Below are positions 1-16,657 of a stretch of DNA of 64,000 nucleotides, in pieces. The position numbers and the translations under genes are program-made. The notes beneath the pieces are model-generated. The model ran no database searches, was not told the DNA's origin, and saw only the letters and a program-made list of their open reading frames with translations. Position 1 is the first letter of the stretch. Every line of letters begins with the position of its first letter. This DNA is from an uncultured Rhodobacteraceae bacterium (GTDB lineage Bacteria; Pseudomonadota; Alphaproteobacteria; Rhodobacterales; Rhodobacteraceae): the NCBI GenBank assembly GCA_937907485.1, contig CALESR010000270.1, positions 3,200 through 67,199 of the forward strand, given 5' to 3'.

Positions 1-2
1 CG

Positions 3-743
3 ATCCCCGGCTTTGCCATTCTGGCGGGCTATGAGGCGGTGCGCGTGCTGCGGCCGCTGTTCGTCACGCCCGAGAGGGTTCTGGCCTGCGAGTTCCAGCG
101 CCTTGATGCTGCGCTCTTTGGCTTTGGCAGCGGCCTGACCCCGGCGGATTTCTTTGCCCGCCATCACGGGCTGGTGGCGGATCTGGTCTTTGGCCTGCCC
201 TATACCGTGTTCTGGGCGATGGTGCTGCTGTGGTGCGTGCTGTTGTTCCTGATCTCGCGCGGGCGGTTTCGGCGCTATCTGTGGGTGCTGGCGCTGACGC
301 ATCTGGCGGCCTTTGTCGTCTGGATGCTGCTGCCCGCTGCGCCGCCGTGGTATGTGCGCGCGCATGCCTGCGTCATCGACCTGAGCGTCGCGCCGCAGGC
401 CGCTGCCCTCAGCCGCCTCGATGCGCTGTTCGGCATCCGCTATTTCGAGGCCTTCTATAGCCGCGCGCCCACGGTCTTTGGCGCCTTTCCCTCGCTGCAT
501 GTGGCCTTTCCGGCGGTGGCGATGGTGACGGGCTGGCGCTGGTTCGGTCCGGCGGGGCGGGCCGTCACCGCCGCACTGACCCTGTGGATGATCGCGGCGA
601 GCGTGTATCTCGATCACCATTGGCTGATCGACGGGCTGGCGACGCTGGGGCTGGTGCTGGCGCTGCACGCTGTGCTGGTGCGGCTTTGGCCGGCCTATGC
701 GGCGCCCGATCCGGGCGCGCGCTGGCGCGAGGGGCCGCGATGA
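3..743 (+). CDS. Aur1-like inositol phosphorylceramide synthase / PAP2-superfamily phosphotransferase (5'-truncated by window edge)
   Basis: Frame is open from base 3. Membrane protein with PAAPPWY, VFGAFPSLH and YLDHHWLID, which parallel the fungal Aur1 conserved blocks (PAxxPWY, FGAFPSLH, HHYFVD) including both catalytic His and the Asp. Confidence 0.78.
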   Translation: MPGFAILAGYEAVRVLRPLFVTPERVLACEFQRLDAALFGFGSGLTPADFFARHHGLVADLVFGLPYTVFWAMVLLWCVLLFLISRGRFRRYLWVLALTHLAAFVVWMLLPAAPPWYVRAHACVIDLSVAPQAAALSRLDALFGIRYFEAFYSRAPTVFGAFPSLHVAFPAVAMVTGWRWFGPAGRAVTAALTLWMIAASVYLDHHWLIDGLATLGLVLALHAVLVRLWPAYAAPDPGARWREGPR

Positions 744-1891
744 CCCTGGAAATTCTGCCCGTGCTGGACCGCCGGTTGCTGGCGCAGTTCATCGACCTGC
801 CGCCCGCCCTGTATCAGGGTCTTGCGGGCTTTGTGGCGCCGCTGCGGATGGAGCGGGCGATGATGCTGGACCCGCGCAAGGCGCCGTTCTTTCGGCGCGG
901 GACGGTGCGGTATTGGCTGGCCCGGCGCGACGGGGTGACCGTGGGGCGGATTTCGGCGCAAATCGCCGCGGATCGGCCGGTCGGCGTGCCCGAGGCGACG
1001 GGCATGTTCGGCTGTCTCGATGCGATTGATGATCGCGCGGTGATCGCTGGGCTGATCGCCAAGGCCGAGGGCTGGCTGGCGAGACAGGGTTGCCGCCACG
1101 CCTTTGGGCCCTTCATGCTGAACATGAACGGCGAGCCGGGACTGCTGATCGACGGTTTTGAACAGCCGCCGATGACCCAGACGCCTTGGCACCCGCCCTA
1201 TCTGCGCGGCCATCTCGAGGCTCTGGGCTATGCCAAGTGGAAGGATCTGAATTCGTGGCGGCTCGATCTGCGCGGGGTCGAGGCCGCCACATTGCGCCAG
1301 TCCCTGCGCCTGCCGCGGCGGCGCGGCGAGGTGACCGCGCGGCCGATCACCCGGCGGTCGTTGCGGGCCGACCTGCCGATCCTGCGCGACCTTTACAACG
1401 ACGGCTGGCGCGACAACTGGGGGCATGTGCCGCTGAGCCTCAATGACCTGCAGGGCCTGCGCCTGCTGGCGCCCTTCCTGCCGCGCGAAACCGGCCGGGT
1501 GATCGAAATTGACGGCGCACCCGTGGCGATCTTGCTGGGCATTCCGGACATTTTCGAACTGTCGCGCGGGTTGGGGCCGCGGCCCTCGCCGTTGGGTTGG
1601 CTGCGGCTGGCCTGGCGCTCGCTGCGCTTTCGGCCGCGCAGCGGGCGCATCATCGTGATGGGGATCGCCGCGAACCTTCGCTACAGCGCTGCCGGGGCGG
1701 CGATCCTGTTGACACTGCTCGACGAGATGATCGACCAGCAGCAAGCCCTCGGCCTCGAGGCAATCGAAGGGGGCTGGGTATTGGAAGATAACGTCGCATT
1801 GACACGGCTGCTGGTTCGTTACAACTTTGCCGCCACACGGACTTTTCGCATCTTCGGCAAGACCTTCTCCGACGATGCCAGCCAGGGATAA
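740..1891 (+). CDS. bcerS: GNAT-fold acyltransferase of the YghO/bacterial ceramide synthase (bCerS) family
   Basis: ATG at 740 overlaps the upstream stop (ATGA). Motifs GRISAQI, GMFGCLDAIDD, AEGWL, GPFMLNMNGEPGLLIDGF, PWHPPY, GYAKWKDL, YNDGWRDNWGHVP and GWVLEDN match my recollection of this family. It lies near an SPT-like gene. Confidence 0.68.
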   Translation: MTLEILPVLDRRLLAQFIDLPPALYQGLAGFVAPLRMERAMMLDPRKAPFFRRGTVRYWLARRDGVTVGRISAQIAADRPVGVPEATGMFGCLDAIDDRAVIAGLIAKAEGWLARQGCRHAFGPFMLNMNGEPGLLIDGFEQPPMTQTPWHPPYLRGHLEALGYAKWKDLNSWRLDLRGVEAATLRQSLRLPRRRGEVTARPITRRSLRADLPILRDLYNDGWRDNWGHVPLSLNDLQGLRLLAPFLPRETGRVIEIDGAPVAILLGIPDIFELSRGLGPRPSPLGWLRLAWRSLRFRPRSGRIIVMGIAANLRYSAAGAAILLTLLDEMIDQQQALGLEAIEGGWVLEDNVALTRLLVRYNFAATRTFRIFGKTFSDDASQG

Positions 1892-1898
1892 CAGCTCG

Positions 1899-2240
1899 AT
1901 GACCGACAGCGACGTCAACATGGCCCCACCCGCCGAGCCCGAACGCGGCCCGGCGCCAACCGAGTGGCCGGTCCTGCCCGAAGAGGGGATGCTGGACAAG
2001 ATCCTGAAGATCGTGGTCGACGAGGGCAAGGTCGAGGCCGACGCCGTGCAACCCGTGGCCACCTTGGAATCGCTGGGCCTGATCTCGATCGACGTCATCA
2101 GCATCCTGATGGGAATCGAGGAGGAATTCGACGTCTATCTGCCGATGAGCGAGGAACTCTCCTCGGCGCGCAATCTGGCCGAGTTGATCGCCGTCATGGT
2201 CGCGCAGATGCGGCCGGACGAACTCAAGTCCATCGGCTGA
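1899..2240 (+). CDS. Dedicated acyl carrier protein (start may be 1899, 1920 or 1989)
   Basis: Small acidic protein with ATLESLGLISIDVISILMGIEEEFDV. The 4'-phosphopantetheine Ser is retained, in an atypical ISI rather than DSL context. Confidence 0.8.
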   Translation: MTDSDVNMAPPAEPERGPAPTEWPVLPEEGMLDKILKIVVDEGKVEADAVQPVATLESLGLISIDVISILMGIEEEFDVYLPMSEELSSARNLAELIAVMVAQMRPDELKSIG

Positions 2241-2248
2241 CCGGGGTC

Positions 2249-3466
2249 ATGGTGCGGGTCGCAATCACCGGATTTGGCGCCGTCAGTGCGGCTGGCATCG
2301 GCGCCGAGGCCCTGTGGCAGGCCGCGCGTGACGGGGTGTCGGGGGTGCGGCCGCTGGACATGCCCCGCAGCGAAACGCTGCGCGTGCGCATTGCGGCCGG
2401 TGTGCCGGAGTTTGATGCGGCGGCGTTGCTGGGCGGGTCGGTTCCCCGCACCAGCGAGCGCTTCAGCCAGTTCGCGATGGTCGCCGCCGCCGAGGCCGTG
2501 GCGCAGTCGGGGATCACCGCCGAGCAACTGGCCGGGCGACGCAGCGCGACGATCATCGGCACCGGGGTCGGCGGTGTCGGTACGATCGACGACAATTGTT
2601 ATCTCTTTTACAGCGAACAGCACTCCGGCGTGCGCGGCGAGGCGATGTCGGTGCCGCGCGTGATGCCCAGCTCTGCCGTGTCGCATGTGTCGATTGCGCA
2701 TGGCATCACCGGGCCCAGTTTCGGCATCGTCAGCGCCTGCGCCTCGGGGGCACAATCCATCGGCGTGGCGATGCAGATGATTCGGTCGGGCATGGTGGAC
2801 CGCGCGCTGGCGGGTGGCACCGAGGCCTGCATCACCCCGGTGACGATGCGCGGTTGGGAGATGCTGCGCGTGCTGTCACCGCGCGCCTGCCAGCCGTTTT
2901 CGGCGGACCGCACCGGCATGGTGCTGGGCGAGGGCGCGGCGGTGTTCTTGCTGGAATCCGAGGAGTCGGCCCACGCACGCGGCGCGACAGTGCTGGCGTG
3001 GCTGGACGGCTATGGCACCAGCAGCGATGCGCGCGACATGATCCAGCCCGATGCCGAGGGCGCGGCCACCGCGATGCGCGAGGCACTGGCGGATGCGGGC
3101 GTCACGCCGGGGCAGATCGGCTATGTCAACGCGCATGGCACCGGCACCGTGCTCAATGACGTGAACGAGGCCGCCGCCCTGCGCGCCGTCTTCGGAGAGG
3201 CGATTCAATCGGTGCCGGTGTCGTCGTCAAAGCCGATTCTGGGCCATACGTTGGGGGCCGCCGGGGCGCTGGAACTGGTCGTCGCGGTGCAGGCCCTTCG
3301 GCATCAGATGGTGCCGCCGCAGGTAAACCTGACCCGGCCCGACCCGAAATGTGCGCTGAACCTGCCAACCGGCGCGGCGCAACCGGCCGACCTCGACGCC
3401 GTGCTGTCGAATTCCTTTGCCTTTGGCGGCATCAACGCCGTGTTGCTGGTGCGCCGCGCGCCATGA
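2249..3466 (+). CDS. Beta-ketoacyl-ACP synthase II family (FabF/NodE-like)
   Basis: Catalytic Cys-His-His triad in SACASG, NAHGTGT and GHTLGAAG; C-terminal SNSFAFGGINA. The segment WEMLRVLSPRACQPFSADRTGMVLGEG resembles NodE-type enzymes. Confidence 0.92.
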   Translation: MVRVAITGFGAVSAAGIGAEALWQAARDGVSGVRPLDMPRSETLRVRIAAGVPEFDAAALLGGSVPRTSERFSQFAMVAAAEAVAQSGITAEQLAGRRSATIIGTGVGGVGTIDDNCYLFYSEQHSGVRGEAMSVPRVMPSSAVSHVSIAHGITGPSFGIVSACASGAQSIGVAMQMIRSGMVDRALAGGTEACITPVTMRGWEMLRVLSPRACQPFSADRTGMVLGEGAAVFLLESEESAHARGATVLAWLDGYGTSSDARDMIQPDAEGAATAMREALADAGVTPGQIGYVNAHGTGTVLNDVNEAAALRAVFGEAIQSVPVSSSKPILGHTLGAAGALELVVAVQALRHQMVPPQVNLTRPDPKCALNLPTGAAQPADLDAVLSNSFAFGGINAVLLVRRAP

Positions 3467-3864
3467 GCGCCGCGCCGCGCGCCCTTGGCACCTATGAGGT
3501 CACCGTCGAGGCCGCAGCCGCAGCCGCCCTCGCCGCCGCCTTGGGGCGGAGGGGCCCCGAGGGCCCCGTGCCGCTGACCTATCCGCTGATCTGGCTGGCG
3601 GCGCCTGCCGTCCGTCTGGCCTTGCAGGCCGAACTGGCGGGTGAGGGGGCCCTGGCCCTGCCGGTCCACATTGAACAGCGCATTGCGCTGAGCGCGCCCT
3701 TGGTGATCGGTGCGGCCTATCGGCTGGTTCTGACCCTCGACGGTCCCGATGCGCGGCGCATTCTGCGGCTCGACGGCACGCTGCACGACAGCGCCGGGCA
3801 AGAGGTGGGCACCCTGCGCACCGGCCTTGCACTGGTGGCACTGCCGCAGGGCGCAGGCGCATGA
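3463..3864 (+). CDS. Hot-dog-fold protein, probable non-catalytic partner of the downstream MaoC dehydratase
   Basis: ATGA-coupled to the KS. P(L)TYP and PVHIEQRIALSAPLVIG pattern is typical of MaoC N-terminal/HadA-like subunits; no DxNPxH motif. Confidence 0.55.
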   Translation: MSAAPRALGTYEVTVEAAAAAALAAALGRRGPEGPVPLTYPLIWLAAPAVRLALQAELAGEGALALPVHIEQRIALSAPLVIGAAYRLVLTLDGPDARRILRLDGTLHDSAGQEVGTLRTGLALVALPQGAGA

Positions 3865-4259
3865 GCGGCGCGCTGCCTGTCGGTACGCGCCTGCCGGGTG
3901 TCGATCTGCCGCTGGCCGATGCCGAGGCGGTGCAGGCCTATCTGGCGGTGTCTGGCGATGACAACCCGCTGCACCGCGACCCCTCGATGGCGCGCGCGGC
4001 GGGCTTTGACGATAGTCTGGTGCCGGGGATGCTGGTGATGGGCCAGATGGCCGAGGTGCTGCACAATTGGCCCGCCTGCGCCGCGATCGACTGGATGCTG
4101 TGCCGCTTTGTCGATCCGGTGATCGTTGGCACTGCGCTGCGCTGCGAGGGGCGGGTTGTGGCGCAGGATCCTTCGGGAGGCGTGATCCTGCGGCTGACGG
4201 CAGGGGTCGGGCGGCGCCCTGCTGTGGTGGCCGAGGCGCTCATCCGCCCGTCGCCCTGA
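3861..4259 (+). CDS. MaoC-family (R)-hydroxyacyl dehydratase
   Basis: Hydratase motif SGDDNPLHRDPSMARAAGFDDSLVPGML and RFVDPV; ATGA-coupled to the upstream ORF. Confidence 0.82.
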   Translation: MSGALPVGTRLPGVDLPLADAEAVQAYLAVSGDDNPLHRDPSMARAAGFDDSLVPGMLVMGQMAEVLHNWPACAAIDWMLCRFVDPVIVGTALRCEGRVVAQDPSGGVILRLTAGVGRRPAVVAEALIRPSP

Positions 4260-5367
4260 GGCGTCGGCGCATCCGCCAGCCGCCGATCCCCAGCGCCAGC
4301 GCGCAGCCCCCCAACACTGCGACGGGCAGGCCCCAGGCGGCCCAGACCGGCGCGATGCGCCCGTATTCCCCCAGCGCGGAAAAGACGTTGCCGCCCAGAT
4401 TCAGCGCATAGGCCGCGCCGAGGATGACCAGCGGCGTCATCAGCCCGCGCCGCGCCGCCAGCCAGCGCAGGCTGAGGCTGGCGACCAGCAGCGCCATCGC
4501 CACCATGGCGGCCAAGGCCGCATGGCGCTCGTTCAGTGCGGCGCGATAGGCGTCGGCGGCCGGAACGCCGCCCGCGGCGTGCGCAATGCGCGTCAGTGCG
4601 TCCTGCGGCACCAGGCGGGGCTCGACCCCGGCATGGGCCAGCCAGTCGGTGTTGATGGCCAAGGGCACGCGGGCGTCGCTCGGGCCCCCGGCTGGCCAAG
4701 TGGCATGGGCGCCCGTCAACAGAACGGCGCCGTCAACCGGGCGCGCCTCGTCAGCCCAGATCACCCGCTCCAGCCGGTTTTCGCCGTCCAGAAGGAACAG
4801 CCGCAGATCGACCAGCACCGGCCCTGTGGCCTCGAACCGCAGACCGGCATGGACCAGCGCCGCCCCGAAATCATGCCATTCGGGCGGCGCGCTGCCGCCT
4901 GCGAAGCCTGCGCCGTAATAGCGAAACCCGGCCTCGCCCTGCGCCTTGACGGCATGGGGGCGCACATGGGCCAGCAGCGCGACTTGCGCCAGACCAAAGG
5001 CCACCCCGACCACCAGCGCGGGCATCAGCGACAACAGGGGCGCCCGCCCGGTGTTGGCGATCATCGCGCGCTCGTGCCCGCGTGTCAGGTCGAATTCCAC
5101 CCAAAGGATGCCGATCCCCATGCCGATCGGCAGGATTGCAGGCAAGTTGTAGAGCGCACGCAGCCACAGATACCAGGCCAGACGGGGGGCGCCCTCGGGC
5201 ATCGCGGCCACGCCCTGGGCCGTCAGCACCCGGTCGTAATGCCCGGCCAGATCCAGCGCCAACACCAGCGCCAACGCCAGCGCCACCACCAGCGCGGTGC
5301 GCAGTGCATAAAGCCGGGCGACATAGCGGGTTTCCAGCCCGAAGACGGCGAGCGGCGGGCGGGTCAC
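4240..5367 (-). CDS. LptF/LptG-family permease (LptG-like paralog)
   Basis: GTG at 5367 overlaps the stop of the upstream permease. RYV..Y N-terminus, three N-terminal TMs, LPAILPIG...E..M...G motif, periplasmic beta region, three C-terminal TMs with P..AAW.P. Confidence 0.7.
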   Translation of the reverse strand: MTRPPLAVFGLETRYVARLYALRTALVVALALALVLALDLAGHYDRVLTAQGVAAMPEGAPRLAWYLWLRALYNLPAILPIGMGIGILWVEFDLTRGHERAMIANTGRAPLLSLMPALVVGVAFGLAQVALLAHVRPHAVKAQGEAGFRYYGAGFAGGSAPPEWHDFGAALVHAGLRFEATGPVLVDLRLFLLDGENRLERVIWADEARPVDGAVLLTGAHATWPAGGPSDARVPLAINTDWLAHAGVEPRLVPQDALTRIAHAAGGVPAADAYRAALNERHAALAAMVAMALLVASLSLRWLAARRGLMTPLVILGAAYALNLGGNVFSALGEYGRIAPVWAAWGLPVAVLGGCALALGIGGWRMRRRLRATGG

Positions 5368-6524
5368 AATCGTATCCCCTGAGGCAGAACCGATCCCGGC
5401 AAAAGCCGGGCCATCAGCCACGACACCAGCGCGACCAGTGCCAGCGCCAACCCGGCCACCGAGGCCAGGGCCGCCCCAGGCGGCAGACCGCCCAGCAGCG
5501 CCGCGCCCGGCGACAGTGCCAGCCCACCGCCGAGCACCGCACCCAAGGCCACCGGCAGCGCCGCCAACCGCAGCGGTCCGCGAGTCGCCGCCAGCGCCAG
5601 CCCGGCGATCAGCGGCGCGGTCAGTGCCAGCGCCATGCCCAGCACCCGTTCCAGCGCGACCTGTCCGGCGCGCGCATTTCCGCCGAACCAGTCCTGCACC
5701 ACCTCGGGCAGGGTCGCCGTGCGCAGGGTTTCCCCCGGGCCCGGTGCGCCCGGCAGGTCGATGCGCACCGGACCCAGACGCATGCGCTCGACAGCGATCT
5801 GCAGCCCGGCGGTGCGCGTCTGCCCCTCGGTGCGGGAGAACTGGATGATCCGTGCGCCTTCGAGGTCGAGCGCGCCACTCGCCGCGCCGGTGTCGAGGAT
5901 CAGCCGGGTACGCGCGGCGGTGACCACTTGCTCTTCATCGGGATTCGGCCTGAGGAAAACGAAACTGCGTGCCCCGTCGCGGCCCTGCGGCTGCTGGTAA
6001 AAGGTCGTGCTGCCGATGCTCAGGAACCGCCCCTCGATCAGCTGCCCCTGTCGCACGGCCTCGAACTGCGCCTCGATCAGGCGCTGCGTCAGATGCCGGG
6101 CCGCCAGAGGTTCGACAAAACCGCGTAGGCCACCGGCGAGGGTCATCGCGACCAGACCCAGCAGCAGGCAAAAGCCGATCAAGGCGCGCGGTGGCACCCT
6201 GGCCGCGGCGAGAATCACCAGATCACCCGCCTCGCGCCGTCGCAGCAGCGCCAGATAGACCGCGATCACCACCGCCAGTGGCAGGCCGACCGACAGGATC
6301 TCGGGCGAGGCCAGAACCAGCGTCTGAGCAAGGAACCCCAGCCCCAACTGGTTGCGCAGCGTGTCGAACAGCAGATGCGTGACCATCTTGTCGGAAAGGT
6401 AAAGCGCCTCGACCGCCAGAAGCATCAGCGCCATCTGCCCGATGACCTCGCGGCCCAGCACACGCAGATAGCGGCGCGGCAGGCGGGCGGTTCGGGGCGT
6501 GGCGAGCTGGGGGGCGGTTTGCAT
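5364..6524 (-). CDS. LptF/LptG-family permease (LptF-like paralog)
   Basis: RRYLRVLGRE, PEILSVGLPLA..IAVYLALLRRREAGDLVILAAA, FVEPLA and IEGRF follow the YjgP/YjgQ pattern. Confidence 0.75.
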   Translation of the reverse strand: MQTAPQLATPRTARLPRRYLRVLGREVIGQMALMLLAVEALYLSDKMVTHLLFDTLRNQLGLGFLAQTLVLASPEILSVGLPLAVVIAVYLALLRRREAGDLVILAAARVPPRALIGFCLLLGLVAMTLAGGLRGFVEPLAARHLTQRLIEAQFEAVRQGQLIEGRFLSIGSTTFYQQPQGRDGARSFVFLRPNPDEEQVVTAARTRLILDTGAASGALDLEGARIIQFSRTEGQTRTAGLQIAVERMRLGPVRIDLPGAPGPGETLRTATLPEVVQDWFGGNARAGQVALERVLGMALALTAPLIAGLALAATRGPLRLAALPVALGAVLGGGLALSPGAALLGGLPPGAALASVAGLALALVALVSWLMARLLPGSVLPQGIRL

Positions 6525-6531
6525 GGGCGGG

Positions 6532-7272
6532 CTATCGCGCTGGGCCAAGCCAGAGCGCCCGCAGCGCCGGGTCGCCGGCGATCTCGTCAGGGGGCGCGTC
6601 ATGCAGCACGATGCCCTGCGCGATCACGACCACGCGGTCGCAGATCGACAATGTGTCGTGCACATTGTGGTCGGTGACCAGAATGCCGATGCCCCGCGCG
6701 GCCAGATCGCGGATCTGCGCCTTGACCTGTGCAATCGACAGCGGGTCGAGCCCGGAAAACGGCTCGTCCAGCAGCAGATACCGTGGCTGAACGGCAAGGA
6801 GCCGGGCGATTTCGCAGCGCCGCCGTTGCCCGCCCGATACCTGCCGCGGTTTGGCGTCCCGCACCTCGGTCAGGCCCATGTCGCTCAGCAGAGTCTCCAG
6901 TCGCGCCTCGCGGATGGAGCGGTCGGGTTCGTGGTTTTGCAGCGCCAGACGGATATTGTCGGCCAGGCTGAGGCCGCGAAAGGCCGAGGGTTCCTGCGGC
7001 AGATAGCCAAGGCCGCAGCGCGCGCGTGCGTAAGGTGCAAGGCCGGTCAGGTCGCGTCCGTCGAGCAGCACTCGGCCACGGTCGGGCGACTCGGCGCCGG
7101 TCAGCAGGCGGTAGATCGTGGTTTTCCCGGCGCCATTCGGCCCCAGCAGACCGACGATCTGGCCGGGTTGCACGGCAAAGCTGGCATCCGCAACCGCCTG
7201 CACGCCGCGATAGCGCTTTGACAGACCGACCGCAGCTAGCGAGGGCAGGGTGTCAGGGGGGCCGTCGGTCAT
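6532..7272 (-). CDS. LptB-like ABC ATPase
   Basis: Walker A GPNGAGKTT, LGYLPQEPSAFRGL, signature VSGGQRRRCEIAR, Walker B LLLDEPFSGLDP, and the LptB-typical GIGILVTDHNVHDTL. ATG at 7272 is coupled to the upstream stop. Confidence 0.9.
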   Translation of the reverse strand: MTDGPPDTLPSLAAVGLSKRYRGVQAVADASFAVQPGQIVGLLGPNGAGKTTIYRLLTGAESPDRGRVLLDGRDLTGLAPYARARCGLGYLPQEPSAFRGLSLADNIRLALQNHEPDRSIREARLETLLSDMGLTEVRDAKPRQVSGGQRRRCEIARLLAVQPRYLLLDEPFSGLDPLSIAQVKAQIRDLAARGIGILVTDHNVHDTLSICDRVVVIAQGIVLHDAPPDEIAGDPALRALWLGPAR

Positions 7273-8261
7273 GACGCCGATTTCGGCCCGGACGGCATCG
7301 CGCCCAGTCCCAGTGCCACCACGCCGACGATCAGCACCGTCACCAGCATGAGGCCTTGATGCAGCACGCCGATGGCGATGGCCTGCGCAGGGGGGGTGCC
7401 CAGCGCGGCATAGGTCGAGACCACCGCCAGGGCCTGTGGGCCCAGATGCACCGGCGCCAGCGGCAGCAGCGACACCAGACTGATCGAGGCCACCGCCAGC
7501 AGCGCCAGCGCGGGCGAGGCCTGAATACCCAGCGCGTGCTGCAGCGCCAGCGCGGCGGCGACCTCGAGCGCCTTCTTGGCCAGCGCCAGTATGGTTCCCG
7601 GCACCAGCACCCGGCGGCGCAGCAACTGCCCGACGTCCGACGCATAGCGGGCGATCACCCCGCCGATCCGCGCCGTCCAACGCTGCCCAAAGCGGCGCAA
7701 AGCGAAGAGCAGCAGGCCCAGTCCCAGCATCCCGGCGGTCAGCGCAAGGGTCGCGTGGCGCAGCGACTCTGGCAGCGGGGCGAGCGCAAGAGCCAGCGCC
7801 AGCAAGGCCAGTTTGGCCGCTCCGGCCAGCACCTGATCGAGGGTCATGACCCCCGTGGCCTCGGCCGGCGTCAATCCGGCATGGGCGTGCAGCGCCGCGG
7901 CCCCCGTGGCGACACCGCCGAGGCCGGACACCGCAAACCGCGCGCCGATCGACAGCGCGACAACCTGCGCCATCACCGGCCAGCGCACCCGGCGCAGCGG
8001 TGCGGCAAGGCACCGCCATTGCCAGACCCAGAGAGGATAGACCGCCAGACTGGCCGCCAGCGCCAGCGCCAGCAAGGCAGAATCTGTCGCGGCCAGTGCA
8101 AGGCCGACCTGCTGCCACGGCGTCAGAACGATCCCCAGAACCAGCAATCCGCCGATGACCAGCGCCGCACCCGCCACCACCAGCCGCCGACCTCGGCCCA
8201 AAGGGCCAGTCGAGCGCAGCGGCGCATGCAGCGAGGCTGCGTCGCGATGTCCTATGCGCAT
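7269..8261 (-). CDS. YbhN/UPF0104 (lysylphosphatidylglycerol synthase TM domain) flippase-like membrane protein
   Basis: Polytopic hydrophobic protein with W.W..L, LPLAPVHLGPQ..AV...Y..LG and A.AIGVLH.G, the typical LPG_synthase_TM layout. Start is uncertain. Confidence 0.68.
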   Translation of the reverse strand: MRIGHRDAASLHAPLRSTGPLGRGRRLVVAGAALVIGGLLVLGIVLTPWQQVGLALAATDSALLALALAASLAVYPLWVWQWRCLAAPLRRVRWPVMAQVVALSIGARFAVSGLGGVATGAAALHAHAGLTPAEATGVMTLDQVLAGAAKLALLALALALAPLPESLRHATLALTAGMLGLGLLLFALRRFGQRWTARIGGVIARYASDVGQLLRRRVLVPGTILALAKKALEVAAALALQHALGIQASPALALLAVASISLVSLLPLAPVHLGPQALAVVSTYAALGTPPAQAIAIGVLHQGLMLVTVLIVGVVALGLGAMPSGPKSAS

Positions 8262-8340
8262 GCCGGGGTTACCAACTGGCTGGTGAAGGGGACAGAAGCT
8301 TGATATCTGGAATTGTTAGTCAAATCAGGATGAGAAAGCA

Positions 8341-9423
<1,083 letters not shown>

Positions 9424-9444
9424 GGGCGGTGGCGACAGGGGCGG

Positions 9445-10677
9445 ATGATGGGCGAGGGCGCGGCAACCGGACGGTCGTTCAACGAGGTGATGGGCAAGCG
9501 CATTGCCCGCGCGTTTCAGCGCGTTGCCGAGGGGATGAGCGCCGACGAGTTCAACCGCTCTGGCGCGCGGGAGGCCTTTTTTGCCCCGATCGACGCATTG
9601 GAGTCCGCGACCACGGCGCAAGGTGGGCAGTTTCTCAGCTTTGGCCATTACGACTATCTCGGGTTGACGCGGCACCCTGCGGTGATCGAGGCGGGGGTGG
9701 CGGCGCTGCGCCAGCATGGCAGCGGTGCGGGCGCCTCGCGGCTGGTCGGCGGCGAAAGGCTGGCCCACCGCGCGCTTGAAACCGCGATGGCGCGGTTCCT
9801 CGGGGTGGATGCGACGCTGGCGGTCATCAGTGGGTATCTGACCAACCTGTCGCTGATCCCGCATCTGCTGACCGCAAAGGATCTGCTGATCCTCGACGAT
9901 CTGGCGCACAACTCGATCGCCAGCACGGCCCGCATTGGCGGTTATGCCTGCCGGACCTTTGCTCACAACGATTGCGACGCGCTCGAACGTATCCTGACCA
10001 CGGAACGTGCCCGCTATCGCCATGTGCTGATTGTCACCGAGGGGCTGTTCTCGATGGATGGCGACATCCCGGACCTGCCGCGGATTCTGGCGCTCAAGGA
10101 GGCCCACAACGCCTGGCTGATGCTGGACGAGGCGCATTCCTATGGCGTGCTGGGGGCGACAGGGCGCGGCATCACCGAACATTTCGGCGTCGATCCGCGA
10201 CGAGTCGATATCTCGGTCGGCACGTTGTCCAAGAGTTTCGGCGCCTCGGGCGGGTTGATCGTCGCCGCCGAGCACGTCATCGAATGGCTGCGTTATACAC
10301 TGCCGGGCTTTGTGTTCAGCGTCGGCCTGTCGCCGGTTGCCGTGGCGACGGTGCATGCGGCGCTGGATCTGCTGATCGCCGAGCCCGAGCGACTGGCCCG
10401 CATGAACGAGGCGTCGCGGTATTTCCTGGCGCAGGCGCGGGCGGCGGGGCTGAACACTGGCCCGGCGATCGGAACGGCGGTGGTGCCGGTGATCTTTGCC
10501 GATACCCAGCAAACCATGCTGGCGGCCCGGCGGCTGCGCGAGGCGGGCATTTATGCCCCGCCGGTGGCGACGGTCGGCGTGCCCTCGGACAGTCCGCGCA
10601 TTCGGTTTTTCCTGACGGCGAATCACACAACCGCCGATATCGACCGCGCGATAGCCGTGCTGGTCGGGTCAGCCTGA
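9445..10677 (+). CDS. PLP-dependent alpha-oxoamine synthase, serine-palmitoyltransferase-like (RkpG/WcbT-type)
   Basis: YDYLGL, SGYLTN, DLAHNSI, EGLFSMDGD, DEAHSYG, and PLP-lysine motif GTLSKS. The family is certain; serine/acyl substrate is inferred from context. Confidence 0.85.
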   Translation: MMGEGAATGRSFNEVMGKRIARAFQRVAEGMSADEFNRSGAREAFFAPIDALESATTAQGGQFLSFGHYDYLGLTRHPAVIEAGVAALRQHGSGAGASRLVGGERLAHRALETAMARFLGVDATLAVISGYLTNLSLIPHLLTAKDLLILDDLAHNSIASTARIGGYACRTFAHNDCDALERILTTERARYRHVLIVTEGLFSMDGDIPDLPRILALKEAHNAWLMLDEAHSYGVLGATGRGITEHFGVDPRRVDISVGTLSKSFGASGGLIVAAEHVIEWLRYTLPGFVFSVGLSPVAVATVHAALDLLIAEPERLARMNEASRYFLAQARAAGLNTGPAIGTAVVPVIFADTQQTMLAARRLREAGIYAPPVATVGVPSDSPRIRFFLTANHTTADIDRAIAVLVGSA

Positions 10678-11484
10678 CGGGCCTTCGCCCTCGCCCGGAT
10701 CGGGGGCACTGCCGGTGTGTTTCAGACTGTAGGTCAGGATGCGGTCGACCAGCGCGTCTGGCGCCAAGGCCCCCAGCGCCACCGCCAGCCGCAGGGGCCA
10801 GGGAAAGGCGCTGATTCGCGCGCCGCGCGCGACGTCGTGGGCGATGCGCTGCGCCGCGCGCTCGGCGCTCCACAGCCAGGGGCGCGGGGTGGTCAGCGAC
10901 TGGCTCATCGGGGTATCGACAAAGCCCGGCAGCACCAGCGTCACCGCAACACCCTGCGGGCGCAGCAACCGGCGCGTCCCCTCGGCATAGATCCTGAGGG
11001 CGGCCTTGGACGCGGAATAGACCGGCGCCTGCGGCAACCCGATGCCCCCCTGAACCGAGCCGATGATGACCACATGCCCGGCGCCGCGTTGCGCCATGCG
11101 GGGCTGCAAGGGAGTCAACGTGTTCAGCACGCCCATCATGTTCACCGCCATCAGGTCGCGGGCCTGCGCGCCCCGCTCGCCGCCCGGTGGCGCCAGTGCG
11201 CGCCCGCCGCCCAGGCCCGCCCCGGCGATCACCAGATCGACCGCTTGCCGCTGGTCGCACCCCTCGATCCAGGGTTCCAGGCGGTCGTGGTCGGTGACGT
11301 CGATGCGGGCGGCCTCGACCGTGGCGCCGCGCTGGCGGCAGGCCTCGGCAGTGGCGGCCAGCCGCTCGGCGTCGCGGCCATTGAGCGACAGCGCACGACC
11401 CGGCGCGGCGTAATGCAGCGCCAGCGCACGGCCGATGCCGCTGCTCGCGCCGGTAATCAGCACATGCTGGGGTTTGGTCCGCAT
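10669..11484 (-). CDS. Classical short-chain dehydrogenase/reductase (RkpH/WcbP-like; candidate 3-ketosphingoid reductase)
   Basis: ITGASSGIG, catalytic YSASK, PGFVDTPM; AAGGAG Shine-Dalgarno upstream of ATG 11484. Confidence 0.85.
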   Translation of the reverse strand: MRTKPQHVLITGASSGIGRALALHYAAPGRALSLNGRDAERLAATAEACRQRGATVEAARIDVTDHDRLEPWIEGCDQRQAVDLVIAGAGLGGGRALAPPGGERGAQARDLMAVNMMGVLNTLTPLQPRMAQRGAGHVVIIGSVQGGIGLPQAPVYSASKAALRIYAEGTRRLLRPQGVAVTLVLPGFVDTPMSQSLTTPRPWLWSAERAAQRIAHDVARGARISAFPWPLRLAVALGALAPDALVDRILTYSLKHTGSAPDPGEGEGPSG

Positions 11485-11604
11485 TGAGGGCTCCTTGCCC
11501 TGTGGTGGTATCACGCGCGCCGGGTTCCTCGCCAGTCGGAACGACGGGATGGCGGCTTTGTCGGCCTGTCGCTATGCTGGCCGCGCCGCCAGAAGGGGTC
11601 TGCC

Positions 11605-12207
11605 TTGCGCATCCATGAACCGTTCGTCGAACCCGTTGCCCGCCGTCTGGTGGGGTCCGGCATCAGCCCCGATGCGCTGACGCTGGCCTCGGTGCCACCG
11701 GCGGTGCTCGCCGGGGTCTGCGCGGCCGTCGGCTGGTTCGAGGCGGCGGCGCTGGCCTTCACACTTAGCGGTGTGCTCGACCTGCTCGATGGGGCGCTGG
11801 CGCGGGCGATGGATCGGCGCAGCCGGTTCGGCGCCTTGCTCGATTCGTCGCTTGACCGGGTCGCGGATGCCTGTGTGCCGATCGGGCTGGTGGTGTTTTA
11901 CAGTGCGCAGGGCGGGCTGGCCGCAATCCCGGCGCTGGCGCTGCTGGCGTCGCTGTGGGTCTCGTATATCCGCGCGCGGGCGCAGTCGCTGGCGCTGGAA
12001 CTGCCCCGGCTGTGGATGCGCCGCGAGGACCGCTTTGTCGCGCTGGTGCTGGCGCTGCTGGCGGCGCGCTGGGTGGCGCCCGAGTCTGACGTGCCCGCGG
12101 TGCTGCTGCTGTGGGTCTGCGCTGCCATCGCGGTTCTGGGGATGATTGCCGGTGGCATGGCGCTGGTGCAGGCGGCACGACTGGCCCGTCAACCGCCCGA
12201 GGCGTGA
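11605..12207 (+). CDS. CDP-alcohol phosphatidyltransferase, probable phosphatidylinositol-phosphate synthase
   Basis: Signature DLLDGALARAMDRRSRFGALLDSSLDRVAD, plus SYIRARAQSL and RREDR as in PIP/AIP synthases. Near ino1. TTG start is uncertain. Confidence 0.88.
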   Translation: MRIHEPFVEPVARRLVGSGISPDALTLASVPPAVLAGVCAAVGWFEAAALAFTLSGVLDLLDGALARAMDRRSRFGALLDSSLDRVADACVPIGLVVFYSAQGGLAAIPALALLASLWVSYIRARAQSLALELPRLWMRREDRFVALVLALLAARWVAPESDVPAVLLLWVCAAIAVLGMIAGGMALVQAARLARQPPEA

Positions 12208-13070
12208 TTGCCCCAGTCCGCCGCAAAGACCGCGATGGCCGTGGCGTCATTCTGGCCCGAGCGGTTTGGCCCGTCGGTCAGCGCCTGAATCGCCGAGGCG
12301 AGGGTCTCGACCGGAAAGCTGCGGGTCGGCACCACCAGCCGCGGCACGCCGCGCCGCGCCAGATGCCCCGAGACCCAGACATCATCGACCCAGCGCACGG
12401 CCTCGGGCATGCCCGAGAAATCGTGCACCGCCGCATCCAGCGCCCTCGGCGGCAGCAGATAGCCCCAGGTGCCAAACAGGATATCGACCGGGACCAGCCG
12501 GGTCTGCGCACTGCACAGAACGTGGTGCAGCGCGGGAAACTCTCGCCCCGGCGTCAGGCACACGCCACGCAGGCCCAGCGCGGCGGTGGGGTTCGCCCGG
12601 TGTGCAGTCAGCAGCGAGGCCAGAAAATCGCGCGGATAGACCACGTCATCATCGACAACCACGAGGCAGGCGTCGGGGTCAGCCGCCAGTGTTGGCAACA
12701 GCTTGGTCACCGGGCCTTCGTCGGTGCAGCGCAGCACCTCGACACCGGGCGGCAGACCCAGCGTCTGTGGGTCAGGATAGGCCGCGCCGTCGCGTCGGCG
12801 GGTCCGGGGCAGGCACAGCACGATGCGGTCGGCGGGCTGGGACTGGTCGATCAGACTGCGCAGGACGCGGTGCAGCCGATGCGCGCGGGCGGGAATCGTG
12901 GTCAGCGTCACCACCAGCCGTTCGGGCCGCGGTGTGGCGGGCACTGGAGCGGGCACCCGCCAGCCCAGCCGCAGCGCCCGCAGATACAGCCCGGCGATCT
13001 GCGCCAGACTGGGCTGGCGATAGCGCGCAAGACTGCGGGCGATGTTTTGCAACAGGGGCACTTTGGTCAT
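12189..13070 (-). CDS. GT-A fold glycosyltransferase (GT2-like)
   Basis: VVTLTTIPAR, LRSLIDQS, DEGPVTKLLP, acidic VVVDDDVVYP, late DDVWVSG. ATG at 13070 is coupled to the upstream stop. Confidence 0.7.
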   Translation of the reverse strand: MTKVPLLQNIARSLARYRQPSLAQIAGLYLRALRLGWRVPAPVPATPRPERLVVTLTTIPARAHRLHRVLRSLIDQSQPADRIVLCLPRTRRRDGAAYPDPQTLGLPPGVEVLRCTDEGPVTKLLPTLAADPDACLVVVDDDVVYPRDFLASLLTAHRANPTAALGLRGVCLTPGREFPALHHVLCSAQTRLVPVDILFGTWGYLLPPRALDAAVHDFSGMPEAVRWVDDVWVSGHLARRGVPRLVVPTRSFPVETLASAIQALTDGPNRSGQNDATAIAVFAADWGNHASGG

Positions 13071-13840
13071 GGCGCCCAGACCTCGGCCGCGGGGCGCCAG
13101 ACCGGCGCGGCAAAGGGATTGACCAGGCGATTGCGCTCGATCCAGCGGCGGGTCAGCGAGGGGCGGGGCAAGCCTGCGTCCTTCCAACTGCCCTGCGTCA
13201 GGTGGCGGGTGACGATGTGGCGGTTCACTGGCCAGATGTCGGGATAGTCCAGCGGCGCCATGAGTTGGATCTGCGCGCCGATCCAGACCTCGGGCCAAGG
13301 GCGTTCTTGCAACAGGCGGGTCAGCATCCGGGGCCCGGTGATGTCCTCGATCCGGTGCCGGGGGGGCTGGGGTTCGGCGGCGAACAGCGCAAAGGCCCGC
13401 TCGATCGCCGCGCGCAGGAGTGGATGGCCGGGCCGGGTTGCCAGAATGCAATTGGCGATCTGCAGCGGCTTGAGATAGCCCAACTCGCGCTGACGCCGGG
13501 CGCCCAGATGCGCCTCGATCGACAGCGAGCATGGGCGCGCGAACAGGTCAGGCGGCAAGGGGCGCAGGGGTTGCATGTCGATATCGGCATAGAGCCCGCC
13601 ATCGCGCCACAGCACGGCCAGCCGGAACACATCGGCGCGCATCACGCCAAAGGGCATCGCGTCAAAGGCGGCGAGGTGCTGGGGCGCGACCTCGGCCAAC
13701 ACCGCGCGGCTGGCGTCGTCGTCGTATAACCGCAGCTCCAGGCCCGGGTTGAGCCGTGCCCAATCCGCACGCAGGGCCTCGGCCTGGGGCGGCAGTCGGG
13801 CCGTTTTCCAGGTTTGCGACAGGATGCGGGGCAGGGGCAT
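13067..13840 (-). CDS. GT32 glycosyltransferase (Och1/Sur1 DXD sugar-binding family)
   Basis: LPRILSQTWKT, RADVFRLAVLWRDGGLYADID, ANCILATRPGHPLL, ITGPRMLT and HLTQGSW are GT32 hallmarks. Confidence 0.87.
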   Translation of the reverse strand: MPLPRILSQTWKTARLPPQAEALRADWARLNPGLELRLYDDDASRAVLAEVAPQHLAAFDAMPFGVMRADVFRLAVLWRDGGLYADIDMQPLRPLPPDLFARPCSLSIEAHLGARRQRELGYLKPLQIANCILATRPGHPLLRAAIERAFALFAAEPQPPRHRIEDITGPRMLTRLLQERPWPEVWIGAQIQLMAPLDYPDIWPVNRHIVTRHLTQGSWKDAGLPRPSLTRRWIERNRLVNPFAAPVWRPAAEVWAP

Positions 13841-13971
13841 GGGATATCCAGCAGGGATCAGCGCGCAGGATACGGTGACCGGCGCAGGGTTTCAACCGGC
13901 GCGGCATCGCGGCCAATTGCACAGGGTGCGCCTCGCGGTCTAGGGTCGGGTGCACGACAAAGGACCGCCCT

Positions 13972-15777: not shown

Positions 15778-15861
15778 CTCCGGGCGCGGGCGGCAAAGGG
15801 CGGGAAATCTTTACGCCCTAGGGCGACATGATATCAGCGCAGTGCAGCCCCGTCGCGCGTA

Positions 15862-15890
15862 TTGCACTGTCTGCGTAGGCGGGCAATAGT
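15862..15890 (+). promoter_or_regulatory. Possible sigma70-type promoter for the barrel gene
   Basis: TTGCAC-17 bp-AATAGT; a pattern match only. Confidence 0.22.
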
Positions 15891-16005
15891 CGCGCTGGCA
15901 ACCGTCCATTCGGGAGTGGAACAGATGGCGATGTGTGGCGGCAGGCACCTGGAGCACCGTGGATGCCTGCGCTCAAGATTCGGGCTTCGGGTCTTTGTGT
16001 CGCTG

Positions 16006-16569: not shown

Positions 16570-16657
16570 CAGCGGCCAACCCCGAAGGCACGTCGCGGTC
16601 GGGCGCCCTGCACCTCGATACGCCGGGGTGCCGGACATCCGAGGCCCCTGCGCCAAG

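What the first reader, a model, noticed from the sequence alone, without database searches (positions are those of the whole stretch)
4240..7272. Second LptB-F-G set dedicated to a non-LPS lipid
A full lptB/lptF/lptG-like trio sits inside the lipid cluster without lptA, lptC, lptD or KDO genes, and the permeases are unusually Ala/Leu-rich and divergent. lptFG paralogs next to sphingolipid genes are known in Caulobacter; here the ATPase is duplicated as well. This suggests a self-contained extractor for the inositol sphingolipid.
Basis: partly seen in the sequence, partly recalled or inferred. Interest (0 to 1): 0.62.

Follow-up and report, generated by a model that had tools for sequence, protein, structure and literature searches.

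The report
Private LptB-LptF-LptG lipid extractor operon
A Rhodobacteraceae bacterium carries a second, very divergent copy of the machine that pulls lipopolysaccharide out of the inner membrane, here with its own ATPase and a flippase-like partner, inside a gene cluster for an inositol-containing sphingolipid-like lipid; it most likely exports that lipid, a variant of a system shown so far only in Caulobacter, where the ATPase is borrowed.

Summary
On the minus strand, lptB2 (7272-6532), lptF2 (6524-5364) and lptG2 (5367-4240) follow a flippase-like PF03706 gene (8261-7269), with overlapping or near-abutting stop and start codons. The genome also has a complete housekeeping Lpt set and LpxC, so this is a true second set.

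- **ATPase:** LptB2 passes the LptB equivalog cut-off and keeps all catalytic motifs.
- **Permeases:** F2 and G2 are extremely divergent in sequence. They fold as LptF and LptG, with six TM helices, a coupling helix and a beta-jellyroll.
- **Lineages:** F2/G2 form a third LptFG lineage, separate from housekeeping and from Caulobacter-type sphingolipid LptF2/G2. LptB2 branches outside the canonical proteobacterial LptB clade.
- **Conservation:** The four-gene module is present in every related locus whose contig covers it. It always sits beside inositol, Spt or Aur1-like genes.
- **Rarity:** It occurs in 1 of 401 sampled Rhodobacteraceae and 3 of about 185,000 species genomes, counting this one.

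Best reading: a flip-and-extract module for the cluster's lipid. It has no LptC, LptA or LptD of its own and so probably uses the housekeeping bridge. LptF2/G2 sphingolipid export is already published (Caulobacter, 2024 and 2026). The private LptB2, the PF03706 partner and the separate lineage are new. No function was tested.

The parts
7269..8261 (-). Flippase-like membrane protein (PF03706, LPG_synthase_TM / MprF-flippase-type), first gene of the operon, 330 aa
   Evidence: PF03706 scores 66.2 bits (cut-off 33.4). TIGR00374 scores 27.4 bits, below its 43.2 cut-off. Its stop overlaps the lptB2 start as ATGA. It precedes the ATPase in every related locus that reaches that far. It has no sequence match in the PDB.
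6532..7272 (-). lptB2: LptB-type ABC ATPase, 246 aa
   Evidence: TIGR04406 scores 266.8 bits (cut-off 240). The top PDB hits are all LptB at 215-232 bits, and the next ABC ATPase scores 157. Walker A, Q-loop, LSGGQ, Walker B, D-loop, H-loop, the groove Phe and the C-terminal motif are all conserved. It is 46% identical to the housekeeping LptB. It forms a separate clade outside canonical LptB.
5364..6524 (-). lptF2: divergent LptF-type permease, 386 aa
   Evidence: PF03739 scores 61 bits. TIGR04407 scores 64 bits against a 230 cut-off. The AF2 model (pLDDT 69.9) shows 3 TM, a coupling helix, a beta domain at 167-254 and 3 more TM. The best Foldseek hits are LptF chains (6mit_F E 1e-9). It falls in the LptF half of the tree at 100/99 support.
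4240..5367 (-). lptG2: divergent LptG-type permease, 375 aa
   Evidence: PF03739 scores 61.7 bits. TIGR04408 scores 67.5 bits against a 240 cut-off. Its GTG start overlaps the lptF2 stop. The AF2 model has pLDDT 83.3 and pTM 0.78. The top seven Foldseek hits are LptG chains (6mit_G TM 0.72). Its beta domain also matches LptC. The coupling-helix Glu is invariant.
8262..8340 (.). 79-bp divergent intergenic region between the operon and the inositol-1-phosphate synthase gene (8341-9423, +); presumed shared promoter region
   Evidence: The same divergent MIPS/module arrangement is seen in L011-L014 and L025-L027. No promoter consensus was found there, so the regulatory role is inferred.

Best explanation
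The four genes form one operon for an inner-membrane flip-and-extract machine serving the lipid made by the surrounding cluster. That lipid is probably an inositol-phosphate-bearing, sphingolipid-like lipid decorated by the neighbouring GT4/deacetylase and other glycosyltransferases.

**Proposed steps, all inferred**
1. The lipid or its precursors are made on the cytoplasmic face of the inner membrane.
2. The PF03706 protein helps an inositol lipid or precursor across the inner membrane. This is the role MsbA plays for LPS and the flippase domain plays in MprF.
3. An LptB2(2)-F2-G2 ABC complex uses ATP hydrolysis to pull the finished lipid out of the outer leaflet. It pushes the lipid up the beta-jellyroll domains of F2/G2.
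4. The genome encodes only one LptC, one LptA and one LptD, so the lipid is probably handed to the housekeeping periplasmic bridge and LptDE.

**Why a private ATPase**
F2 and G2 have diverged very far, including around the F2 coupling helix. A co-evolving LptB2 would insulate this extractor from the LPS extractor instead of competing for LptB as in Caulobacter.

**Shown here:** gene anatomy, family and fold assignments, intact catalytic motifs, conservation of the module, its genomic associations, its rarity and its phylogenetic separateness.

**Inferred:** the substrate, the direction of transport, the flippase role, the use of LptC/A/DE and the LptB2-F2G2 pairing.
For: **Second set.** Housekeeping lptFG-lptD, lptC-lptA-lptB and LpxC lie elsewhere in the genome.

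**Active ATPase of LptB type.** TIGR04406 scores 266.8 bits against a 240 cut-off. All catalytic motifs are kept in seven orthologues. PDB hits are LptB only.

**F2/G2 keep the full LptF/LptG architecture**, including the beta-jellyroll and coupling helices. In the tree each falls in the right half at 100/99 support.

**Operon structure.** ATGA and GTGA overlaps and a 7-nt gap join the genes.

**Module conservation.**
- Complete in the window and in L009, L011/12, L013, L018 and L025-27.
- On the short contigs L010, L014, L015 and L019 the parts present keep the same order.
- F2 identity ranges from 47% to 97%. LptB2 identity goes down to 54%.

**Module neighbours.** It always sits beside MIPS and an Spt-like gene (with or without a PKS), or beside Aur1-like PAP2_3 plus GT4 and a deacetylase.

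**Selection.** dN/dS is 0.2-0.6.

**Precedent.** Caulobacter LptF2/G2 in the sphingolipid locus are needed when anionic sphingolipid is made, and they bind LptB. An LPG-synthase-annotated gene (BT_1521) also accompanies Bacteroides inositol-lipid clusters.
Against: - No lipid, transport or interaction data exist for this organism, which is known only as a draft assembly of 394 contigs.
- Substrate assignment rests on gene neighbourhood alone.
- Compact loci (L009, L010, L015) keep the module with only the Aur1-like, GT4 and deacetylase genes within 10 kb. A ceramide backbone is therefore not proven for all members.
- The LptB2 groove residues are similar to those of LptB, so exclusive pairing is not shown.
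- The F2 coupling-helix acid is absent in 2 of 7 orthologues.
- A Wzm/Wzt polysaccharide exporter is syntenic with the cluster, so the true cargo could be a larger glycoconjugate.
- The F2 model has only moderate confidence (pLDDT 69.9).
- Long branches make the grouping with the G380-type pair uncertain.
Confidence: 0.68

Rival explanations
1. The cargo is not a small inositol sphingolipid but a lipid-anchored polysaccharide, in effect a second LPS-like lipoglycan. Its anchor would be the cluster's inositol-phospho-lipid. Its glycan would be supplied through the syntenic Wzm/Wzt exporter and glycosyltransferases. LptB2F2G2 would extract this lipoglycan just as LptB2FG extracts LPS.
For: - Wzt, Wzt, Wzm and a 456-aa GT4 flank the lipid cluster in the window's own contig (C270:1-2878) and in L009, L011/12, L025 and L027.
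- The cluster holds four glycosyltransferase-type genes and a deacetylase.
- Lpt-type extractors are built for glycolipids with large head groups.
Against: - No ligase (WaaL-like) or other enzyme joining a polymer to the lipid was seen in the cluster.
- Wzm/Wzt systems normally act on undecaprenyl-linked glycans destined for lipid A-core.
- Adjacency may simply reflect a cell-surface island.
- L026 and L028 lack Wzm/Wzt within the stretch read.
Confidence: 0.15
2. The trio is an alternative LPS extractor, for example for a modified lipid A or for particular growth conditions. Its place in the lipid cluster would be incidental.
For: - LptB2 passes the LptB equivalog cut-off.
- F2 and G2 have the LptF/G fold.
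- The organism makes lipid A, since LpxC is present.
Against: - The module is syntenic with inositol, Spt and Aur1-like genes in every locus across 47-97% identity, and never with lpx or kds genes.
- The permeases score 61-67 bits where true LptF/G score 186-254.
- It is absent from 400 of 401 sampled Rhodobacteraceae, including a congener. All of these keep ordinary LptFG-type hits.
Confidence: 0.05
3. The module acts only within the inner membrane or toward the periplasm and does not feed the Lpt bridge. It might flip or extract the lipid for a periplasmic-face enzyme such as the Aur1-like PAP2_3, or release it to another carrier. Delivery to the outer membrane would use another route or not occur.
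For: - There is no private LptC, LptA or LptD.
- The Aur1-like PAP2_3 is the most constant neighbour.
- In Caulobacter no LptC2-F2G2 contact could be shown, and the downstream route is unknown.
Against: - Both permeases keep a beta-jellyroll domain. The G2 domain matches LptC structurally. In the Lpt system this fold exists to pass lipid along a bridge.
- An ATP-driven extractor is not needed for in-membrane reactions.
Confidence: 0.1

Closest known systems
Caulobacter crescentus LptF2/LptG2 (CCNA_01214/01213) with LptC2, the sphingolipid-locus paralogs (Olea-Ozuna et al. 2024, PMC11324152; Uchendu, Isom and Klein 2026, bioRxiv 10.64898/2026.04.12.717747)
   Same: - It is a second LptF/LptG pair inside a sphingolipid-type biosynthetic locus in an alphaproteobacterium that also makes LPS.
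- The proposed job is to extract the locus lipid from the inner membrane.
- There is no private LptA, LptD or LptE.
   Different: - Caulobacter has no second LptB, and F2/G2 bind the sole LptB. Here a private LptB2 is translationally coupled to F2/G2.
- The Caulobacter-type pair is nearly canonical. In L022 it scores 225.6 and 254.3 bits on TIGR04407/8, against 64 and 67.5 here.
- The two form separate lineages.
- The flippase candidate there is Wzx/MOP-type (CC_1166, IPR002797). Here it is PF03706.
- The head group there is phosphoglycerate. Here the neighbouring genes point to inositol phosphate.
- There is no LptC2 here.
Canonical LptB2FGC lipopolysaccharide extractor (e.g. PDB 6MIT, 6MJP, 5X5Y, 8FRL)
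   Same: - The subunit set is the same: an LptB-type ATPase plus one LptF-type and one LptG-type permease.
- The predicted fold is the same, with six TM helices, a coupling helix and a beta-jellyroll.
- The ATPase motifs and the groove Phe are kept.
   Different: - The permease sequences are almost unrecognisable. The G2 profile hits PDB LptG at only E 9e-5.
- There is no adjacent lptC or lptA.
- The gene order is flippase-B-F-G in one operon, whereas canonical lptB sits with lptC/lptA and lptFG sits elsewhere.
- The neighbours are inositol and sphingolipid genes, not LPS genes.
G380-type and cluster-II LptF2/G2 pairs found here (e.g. L020, L028, L032)
   Same: - They are divergent F2/G2 pairs beside Spt-like genes, with MIPS, Aur1-like PAP2_3 or bCerS-like genes in some loci.
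- They are the nearest relatives of the window's pair by reciprocal BLAST, profile score and tree.
   Different: - Identity is only 27-29%.
- L020 and L028 have no LptB2 or PF03706 gene nearby. G380 has a single LptB.
- L032 has an LptB-type gene next to the cluster.
MprF flippase domain and the Bacteroides BT_1521 homologues beside inositol-lipid clusters (Heaver et al. 2022, PMC9246714)
   Same: - The first gene of the operon belongs to the same Pfam family (PF03706) as the MprF membrane region.
- In Bacteroidetes, a gene annotated as lysylphosphatidylglycerol synthase is shared next to both types of inositol-lipid cluster.
   Different: - There is no synthase domain here.
- The TIGR00374 score is below its cut-off.
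- There is no PDB sequence match.
- That BT_1521 carries PF03706 was taken from its annotation and not checked.
- No flipping activity is known for either protein.

Membership tests
LptB (LPS export ABC ATPase, TIGR04406) | Score above the curated equivalog cut-off | tested here: met
   The window protein scores 266.8 bits against the 240 cut-off. Orthologues score 256.7-322.9 bits.
LptB (LPS export ABC ATPase, TIGR04406) | Intact Walker A, Q-loop, signature, Walker B, D-loop and H-loop, plus the groove Phe and the C-terminal motif | tested here: met
   All are conserved in seven LptB2 sequences and aligned with the housekeeping LptB. The residue roles come from established LptB work, recalled and not re-read.
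LptB (LPS export ABC ATPase, TIGR04406) | Belongs to the clade of canonical LptB | tested here: not met
   24 canonical alpha- and gammaproteobacterial LptB sequences form a clade (100/99) that excludes the LptB2 clade (99/97). The outgroup branches are long.
LptB (LPS export ABC ATPase, TIGR04406) | Powers LPS extraction with LptFG | not testable with these tools
   This needs biochemistry or genetics.
LptF/LptG permeases (PF03739; TIGR04407/TIGR04408) | Pfam gathering score | tested here: met
   The scores are 61.0 and 61.7 bits against a cut-off of 27.9, over the full model length.
LptF/LptG permeases (PF03739; TIGR04407/TIGR04408) | NCBIfam equivalog cut-offs for LptF and LptG | tested here: not met
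   The scores are 64.1 against 230 and 67.5 against 240.
LptF/LptG permeases (PF03739; TIGR04407/TIGR04408) | Six TM helices, a cytoplasmic coupling helix and a periplasmic beta-jellyroll | tested here: met
   This rests on the AF2 models and on Foldseek full-length matches to LptF and LptG chains only, at probability 1.00.
LptF/LptG permeases (PF03739; TIGR04407/TIGR04408) | Conserved Glu in the coupling helix | tested here: met
   In G2 it is invariant at the canonical spacing. In F2, Asp or Glu is present in 5 of 7 sequences, and an upstream Glu in the RRRE motif is invariant.
Caulobacter-type sphingolipid LptF2/LptG2 | Second LptFG pair inside a locus with spt | tested here: met
   An Spt-like gene lies at 9445-10677. 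The housekeeping pair is on C39.
Caulobacter-type sphingolipid LptF2/LptG2 | No ATPase of its own; uses housekeeping LptB | tested here: not met
   A private lptB2 is coupled to lptF2. Caulobacter has none.
Caulobacter-type sphingolipid LptF2/LptG2 | Falls in the same clade as CerS-linked F2/G2 | tested here: not met
   It is a separate lineage in the tree. Caulobacter-type proteins rank with canonical LptF at the bottom of the profile search. Caulobacter-type loci were recognised by gene context (L022), not by name.
Caulobacter-type sphingolipid LptF2/LptG2 | Essential only when the sphingolipid is made | not testable with these tools
   This needs genetics.
MprF-type flippase region (PF03706 / TIGR00374) | Family score cut-offs | tested here: inconclusive
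   PF03706 scores 66.2 bits against 33.4, which is met. TIGR00374 scores 27.4 bits against 43.2, which is not met.
MprF-type flippase region (PF03706 / TIGR00374) | Lipid flipping activity | not testable with these tools
   No structure or assay is available, and there is no PDB sequence match.

The most novel reading that the evidence does not exclude
The cluster may build a second, lipid-A-independent, LPS-like surface molecule. This would be a glucosamine-inositol-phospho-sphingolipid (GPI/GIPC-like) anchor, possibly carrying a polymer supplied through the syntenic Wzm/Wzt exporter. The operon flippase-LptB2-F2-G2 would then be a fully insulated second entry port into the Lpt bridge. Its own ATPase would have co-evolved with its permeases so that the two extractors do not cross-assemble.
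Probability: 0.15. Interest if true: 0.85.

Novelty: new variant of a known kind. Interest (0 to 1): 0.55.

Why it matters
How bacterial sphingolipids reach the outer membrane is only now being worked out. The one experimental system, Caulobacter, shares its ATPase with LPS transport, which makes the two pathways hard to separate.

- **A cleaner test system.** This module carries its own LptB-type motor and a candidate flippase in one small operon. It is a natural candidate for reconstitution: express four genes plus the lipid genes in a laboratory strain.
- **A route to specificity.** It could show what makes an LptB pair with a given LptFG.
- **Repeated recruitment.** The Lpt extractor appears to have been recruited to non-LPS lipids at least twice, in the Caulobacter type and in this inositol-cluster type.
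- **Inositol lipids in Alphaproteobacteria.** The finding links Lpt-like transport to inositol lipids, which Heaver et al. 2022 describe as relatively rare in bacteria.

If the pairing is exclusive, the LptB2-specific residues and the altered F2 coupling helix mark the determinants of motor-permease recognition.

Tried and rejected
**Readings rejected**
- Recent duplication of the housekeeping genes. LptB2 is only 46% identical to LptB. F2 has no BLASTP match to LptF. LptB2 branches outside canonical LptB.
- Orthology with Caulobacter-type LptF2/G2. They are separate lineages with very different family scores.
- Decaying pseudogenes. The frames are intact in all loci, the motifs are conserved and dN/dS is below 1. 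dS is about 1 and near saturation, so the ratios are rough.

**Searches that gave nothing**
- Private LptC or LptA: one weak LptC hit and one LptA hit in the whole genome, both at the housekeeping locus.
- Promoter and terminator scan of 3800-8500: nothing informative.
- PDB sequence search with the flippase-like protein: no hit.
- Pfam on the barrel-like ORF 15862-16569: no hit even at E 5.

- A metagenome scan with a 35-sequence alignment of distant F2 relatives failed for lack of a conserved stretch. A tighter alignment then gave 6 loci.
- I could not obtain named Caulobacter sequences. Caulobacter-type loci were identified by context instead: bCerS-like, LptG2, LptF2, CDP-alcohol transferase, DAG-kinase-like and Wzx genes in L022.
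- Whether compact (type B) genomes have spt elsewhere could not be settled. The Roseovarius MAG carrying the module does have an Spt orthologue at 72% identity on another contig.

Full report
**1. What is there**

The finding's coordinates coincide with three minus-strand genes.
- lptG2, 5367-4240, 375 aa.
- lptF2, 6524-5364, 386 aa.
- lptB2, 7272-6532, 246 aa.

Family scores:
- Pfam PF03739 matches both permeases over its full length, at 61.0 and 61.7 bits against a cut-off of 27.9.
- The NCBIfam equivalog models for LptF and LptG give only 64 and 67.5 bits against cut-offs of 230 and 240.
- The ATPase passes the LptB equivalog model, at 266.8 bits against 240.

Reading the junctions:
- The ATG of lptB2 overlaps the TGA of an upstream gene (ATGA).
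- lptF2 starts 7 nt after the lptB2 stop.
- The GTG of lptG2 overlaps the lptF2 stop (GTGA).
- The upstream gene (8261-7269, 330 aa) is a PF03706 (LPG_synthase_TM, "flippase-like") membrane protein at 66.2 bits.

The unit is therefore a four-gene, translationally coupled operon. It is divergent from the inositol-1-phosphate synthase gene across a 79-bp spacer.

**2. Is it a second set?**

Yes.
- Contig C39 carries lptF-lptG-lptD-surA-pdxA, with PF03739 at 186 and 203 bits.
- Contig C179 carries lptC-lptA-lptB-rpoN, with LptB at 361 bits.
- LpxC is present at 327 bits.
- Only one LptC-like and one LptA-like sequence exist in the genome, both at the housekeeping locus.

The new set is not a recent copy. 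LptB2 is 46% identical to LptB. F2 has no significant BLASTP similarity to LptF. G2 aligns with LptG over only 84 residues.

Ala+Leu is 34-35% against 27-31% in the housekeeping pair, partly because the operon is 70.8% GC in a 66.9% GC genome.

**3. Are the proteins what they seem?**

*LptB2*
- It keeps Walker A, Q-loop, LSGGQ, Walker B, D-loop and H-loop.
- It keeps the Phe of the groove that receives the coupling helices and the C-terminal motif. All these features hold in seven orthologues.
- Its PDB matches are LptB chains at 215-232 bits. The next ABC ATPases score 157.
- Against 96 canonical LptB sequences it carries a small family signature: Y54/R55, A60, A110, L158, L237 and W241.

*F2 and G2*
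- The AlphaFold2 models have pLDDT 69.9 for F2 and 83.3 for G2.
- Both show three TM helices, a short coupling helix, a beta domain and three more TM helices.
- Foldseek against the PDB returns only LptF and LptG chains with confidence.
- F2 matches LptF best. G2's top seven hits are LptG (6mit_G, TM 0.72, rmsd 4.6 A over 365 columns).
- The G2 beta domain also matches LptC. The beta-jellyroll that passes lipid to a periplasmic bridge is therefore retained.
- The coupling-helix Glu is invariant in G2. In F2 an acid sits at the canonical position in 5 of 7 sequences, preceded by a family-specific RRRE motif.

**4. Relatives and context**

*Size of the family*
- A word-indexed search found only 13 clusters related to F2, at 47-97% identity.
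- About 24 clusters belong to LptB2, at 54-97% identity. Below these, canonical LptB sequences follow at 48-54% identity.

*Module conservation.* In every locus whose contig reaches far enough, the order PF03706-LptB2-F2-G2 is kept.

*Three surroundings occur*
- **Type A** (the window, L011/12, L013, L018, L025, L027; L014 as far as its contig reaches): the full cluster. Its genes are GT4, deacetylase, GT32, a GT2-like gene, CDP-alcohol transferase, SDR, Spt-like, MIPS, the module, MaoC, hot-dog, KS, ACP, a bCerS-like gene and an Aur1-like PAP2_3.
- **Type B** (L009; L010 and L015 on short contigs): in L009 the order is GT4, deacetylase, the module, PAP2_3. No spt or MIPS lies within the stretch read (10 kb either side in L009).
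- **Type C** (L026): a giant PKS, an aminotransferase, MIPS, then the module.

*Wzm/Wzt synteny.* A Wzm/Wzt exporter and a further GT4 flank types A and B. They also flank the window's own contig just upstream of the window.

*Rarity*
- Among 185,579 species genomes, a pattern scan found the F2 family in only two MAGs besides this one: Rhodobacteraceae HKST-UBA89 and a Roseovarius sp..
- In 401 evenly drawn Alphaproteobacteria and in 401 Rhodobacteraceae (about one per genus), only the window's genome has it. It scores 596 bits. The next best scores were 63.5 bits in the class sample and 72 bits in the family sample. A genome of the same genus lacks it.
- With its raised GC content, this points to horizontal acquisition.

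**5. Relation to the known sphingolipid LptF2/G2**

*Published work*
- Olea-Ozuna et al. (2024) named LptC2, LptF2 and LptG2 in the Caulobacter sphingolipid locus.
- Uchendu, Isom and Klein (2026 preprint) showed three things. The genes can be deleted only when anionic sphingolipid is not made. F2 and G2 form a complex. Both bind the sole LptB.
- The preprint states that no lptB duplicate exists in the locus or elsewhere.

*LptB duplication is rare.* Only 3 of 401 Alphaproteobacteria have two LptB-grade genes. The two others (G052, G259) have no second LptFG pair.

*Tree of 22 LptF/LptG sequences*
- It splits F from G at 100/99 support.
- Each half has three lineages: housekeeping, CerS-linked and inositol-cluster.
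- The CerS-linked lineage is the Caulobacter type. I recognised it in L022 by its bCerS-like, fatty-acid hydroxylase, LptG2, LptF2, CDP-alcohol transferase, DAG-kinase-like and Wzx context.
- The inositol-cluster lineage contains the window's family plus a pair from another Rhodobacteraceae genome, G380.
- The order of the three lineages is unresolved, and the branches are long.

*Independent support*
- An exhaustive profile search of 1.84 billion representatives ranks the window family first (3 representatives above 550 bits).
- A group of about 90 full-length relatives, including the L026 and G380 types, mostly ranks next. A smaller 12-member group follows.
- Caulobacter-type and canonical LptF come last, at about 57-59 bits.
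- Caulobacter-type F2/G2 are almost canonical, at 225.6 and 254.3 bits on the equivalog models.

*The ATPase.* In its tree, canonical alpha- and gammaproteobacterial LptB form a clade (100/99). That clade excludes the LptB2 clade (99/97) and an LptB-type gene next to a cluster-II locus, L032.

*Distribution of the private ATPase*
- It is old and has travelled with these permeases, but it is patchy in the wider superfamily.
- G380 has a single LptB. Its locus reads Spt, DUF4833, MIPS, SDR, CTP transferase, F2, G2, GT4.
- L028 has none nearby.

**6. How it most likely works**

*Best reading (confidence about 0.68)*
- The operon is a flip-and-extract module for the cluster's inositol-phosphate-bearing, sphingolipid-like lipid.
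- The PF03706 protein would do for this lipid or a precursor what MsbA does for LPS.
- LptB2(2)F2G2 would extract the lipid from the outer leaflet of the inner membrane and load it onto the F2/G2 jellyrolls.
- With no LptC, LptA, LptD or LptE of its own, it would then use the housekeeping bridge.

*The PF03706 link.* The link between PF03706-type genes and inositol lipids is not unique to this locus. Heaver et al. (2022) note a "lysylphosphatidylglycerol synthase" BT_1521 homologue beside both types of Bacteroidetes inositol-lipid cluster. The Caulobacter candidate flippase belongs to a different family, Wzx/MOP.

*Why a private motor.* A reasonable explanation is insulation. The permeases, and the region around the F2 coupling helix, have changed so much that a co-evolving ATPase avoids mixed or competing complexes. 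This is inference. The groove of LptB2 is not radically different from that of LptB.

*Rivals*
- A larger lipoglycan cargo, suggested by the syntenic Wzm/Wzt (0.15).
- A role that does not feed the Lpt bridge (0.10).
- An alternative LPS extractor (0.05).

**7. Verdict**
The set is second and dedicated. It is not fully self-contained, not of the Caulobacter lineage, and includes a fourth gene.
- The principle, LptFG paralogs for sphingolipids, is published.
- The new points are the private LptB2, the coupled PF03706 partner, the deep separate lineage and the link to inositol-lipid clusters.
- Nothing functional was tested.

Noticed in passing
window 15862-16569 (+): This is a 235-aa ORF with a likely signal peptide and a C-terminal Phe, so it looks like a small outer-membrane barrel. 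It has no Pfam hit and is single-copy in the genome. It is conserved at the same position, divergent from the GT4 gene, in L011, L012, L014 and L018 at 59-64% identity. It could be an outer-membrane partner or a lipid-modifying enzyme of the cluster.
   Followed up: partly
own contig C270:1-2878, just upstream of the window start: The lipid cluster continues beyond the window. A partial Wzt, a second Wzt (227-1498) and a 456-aa GT4 (2878-1511) precede the Aur1-like gene, which starts 185 bases before the window. The same Wzm/Wzt/GT4 flank is present in L009, L011/12, L025 and L027.
   Followed up: partly
L026:1-12073: In one metagenomic locus the same flippase-LptB2-F2-G2 module and MIPS sit behind a giant polyketide synthase (over 2,500 aa; KS, AT and DH domains and more) and a 452-aa aminotransferase. 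This suggests a PKS-made long-chain amino-alcohol backbone in place of the Spt/KS/ACP set. L028 shows a similar giant ORF before an Spt-like gene.
   Followed up: no
L020 (G380:C2:490000-509999), genes 4997-13112: A different Rhodobacteraceae genome has a second type of cluster: Spt-like, DUF4833, MIPS, SDR, CTP_transf_1, divergent LptF2, LptG2 and GT4. It has no LptB2 and no PF03706 gene. About 10 of 401 sampled Rhodobacteraceae have an F2-like hit scoring like G380's (56-72 bits). Their contexts were not examined, and some could be housekeeping LptF.
   Followed up: partly
genomes G052 and G259: These are the only other Alphaproteobacteria of 401 with two LptB-grade genes. They have just one LptF/LptG pair, so their extra LptB has some other context.
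   Followed up: no
window 1-16600 versus the rest of contig C270: The lipid cluster is 68.8% GC and the operon 70.8%. The rest of the contig is 64.2% and the genome 66.9%. A genome of the same genus lacks the module. This is consistent with a horizontally acquired island.
   Followed up: partly
LptF2 residues 37-46 (window about 6416-6387, minus strand): A glutamate in the middle of TM1, in the motif VEA(L/I)(Y/F)L(S/A)D, is invariant in the window family. It is also invariant in the eight aligned cluster-II relatives and present in the G380 pair, but absent from L026 and from housekeeping LptF. It could face the lipid cavity, but this was not examined structurally.
   Followed up: no
L027:9796-12079: The called F2 (424 aa) and G2 (348 aa) genes overlap. 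The F2 C-terminus reads as low-complexity Cys/Gly/Ala sequence, which suggests a frameshift or assembly error in that contig.
   Followed up: no
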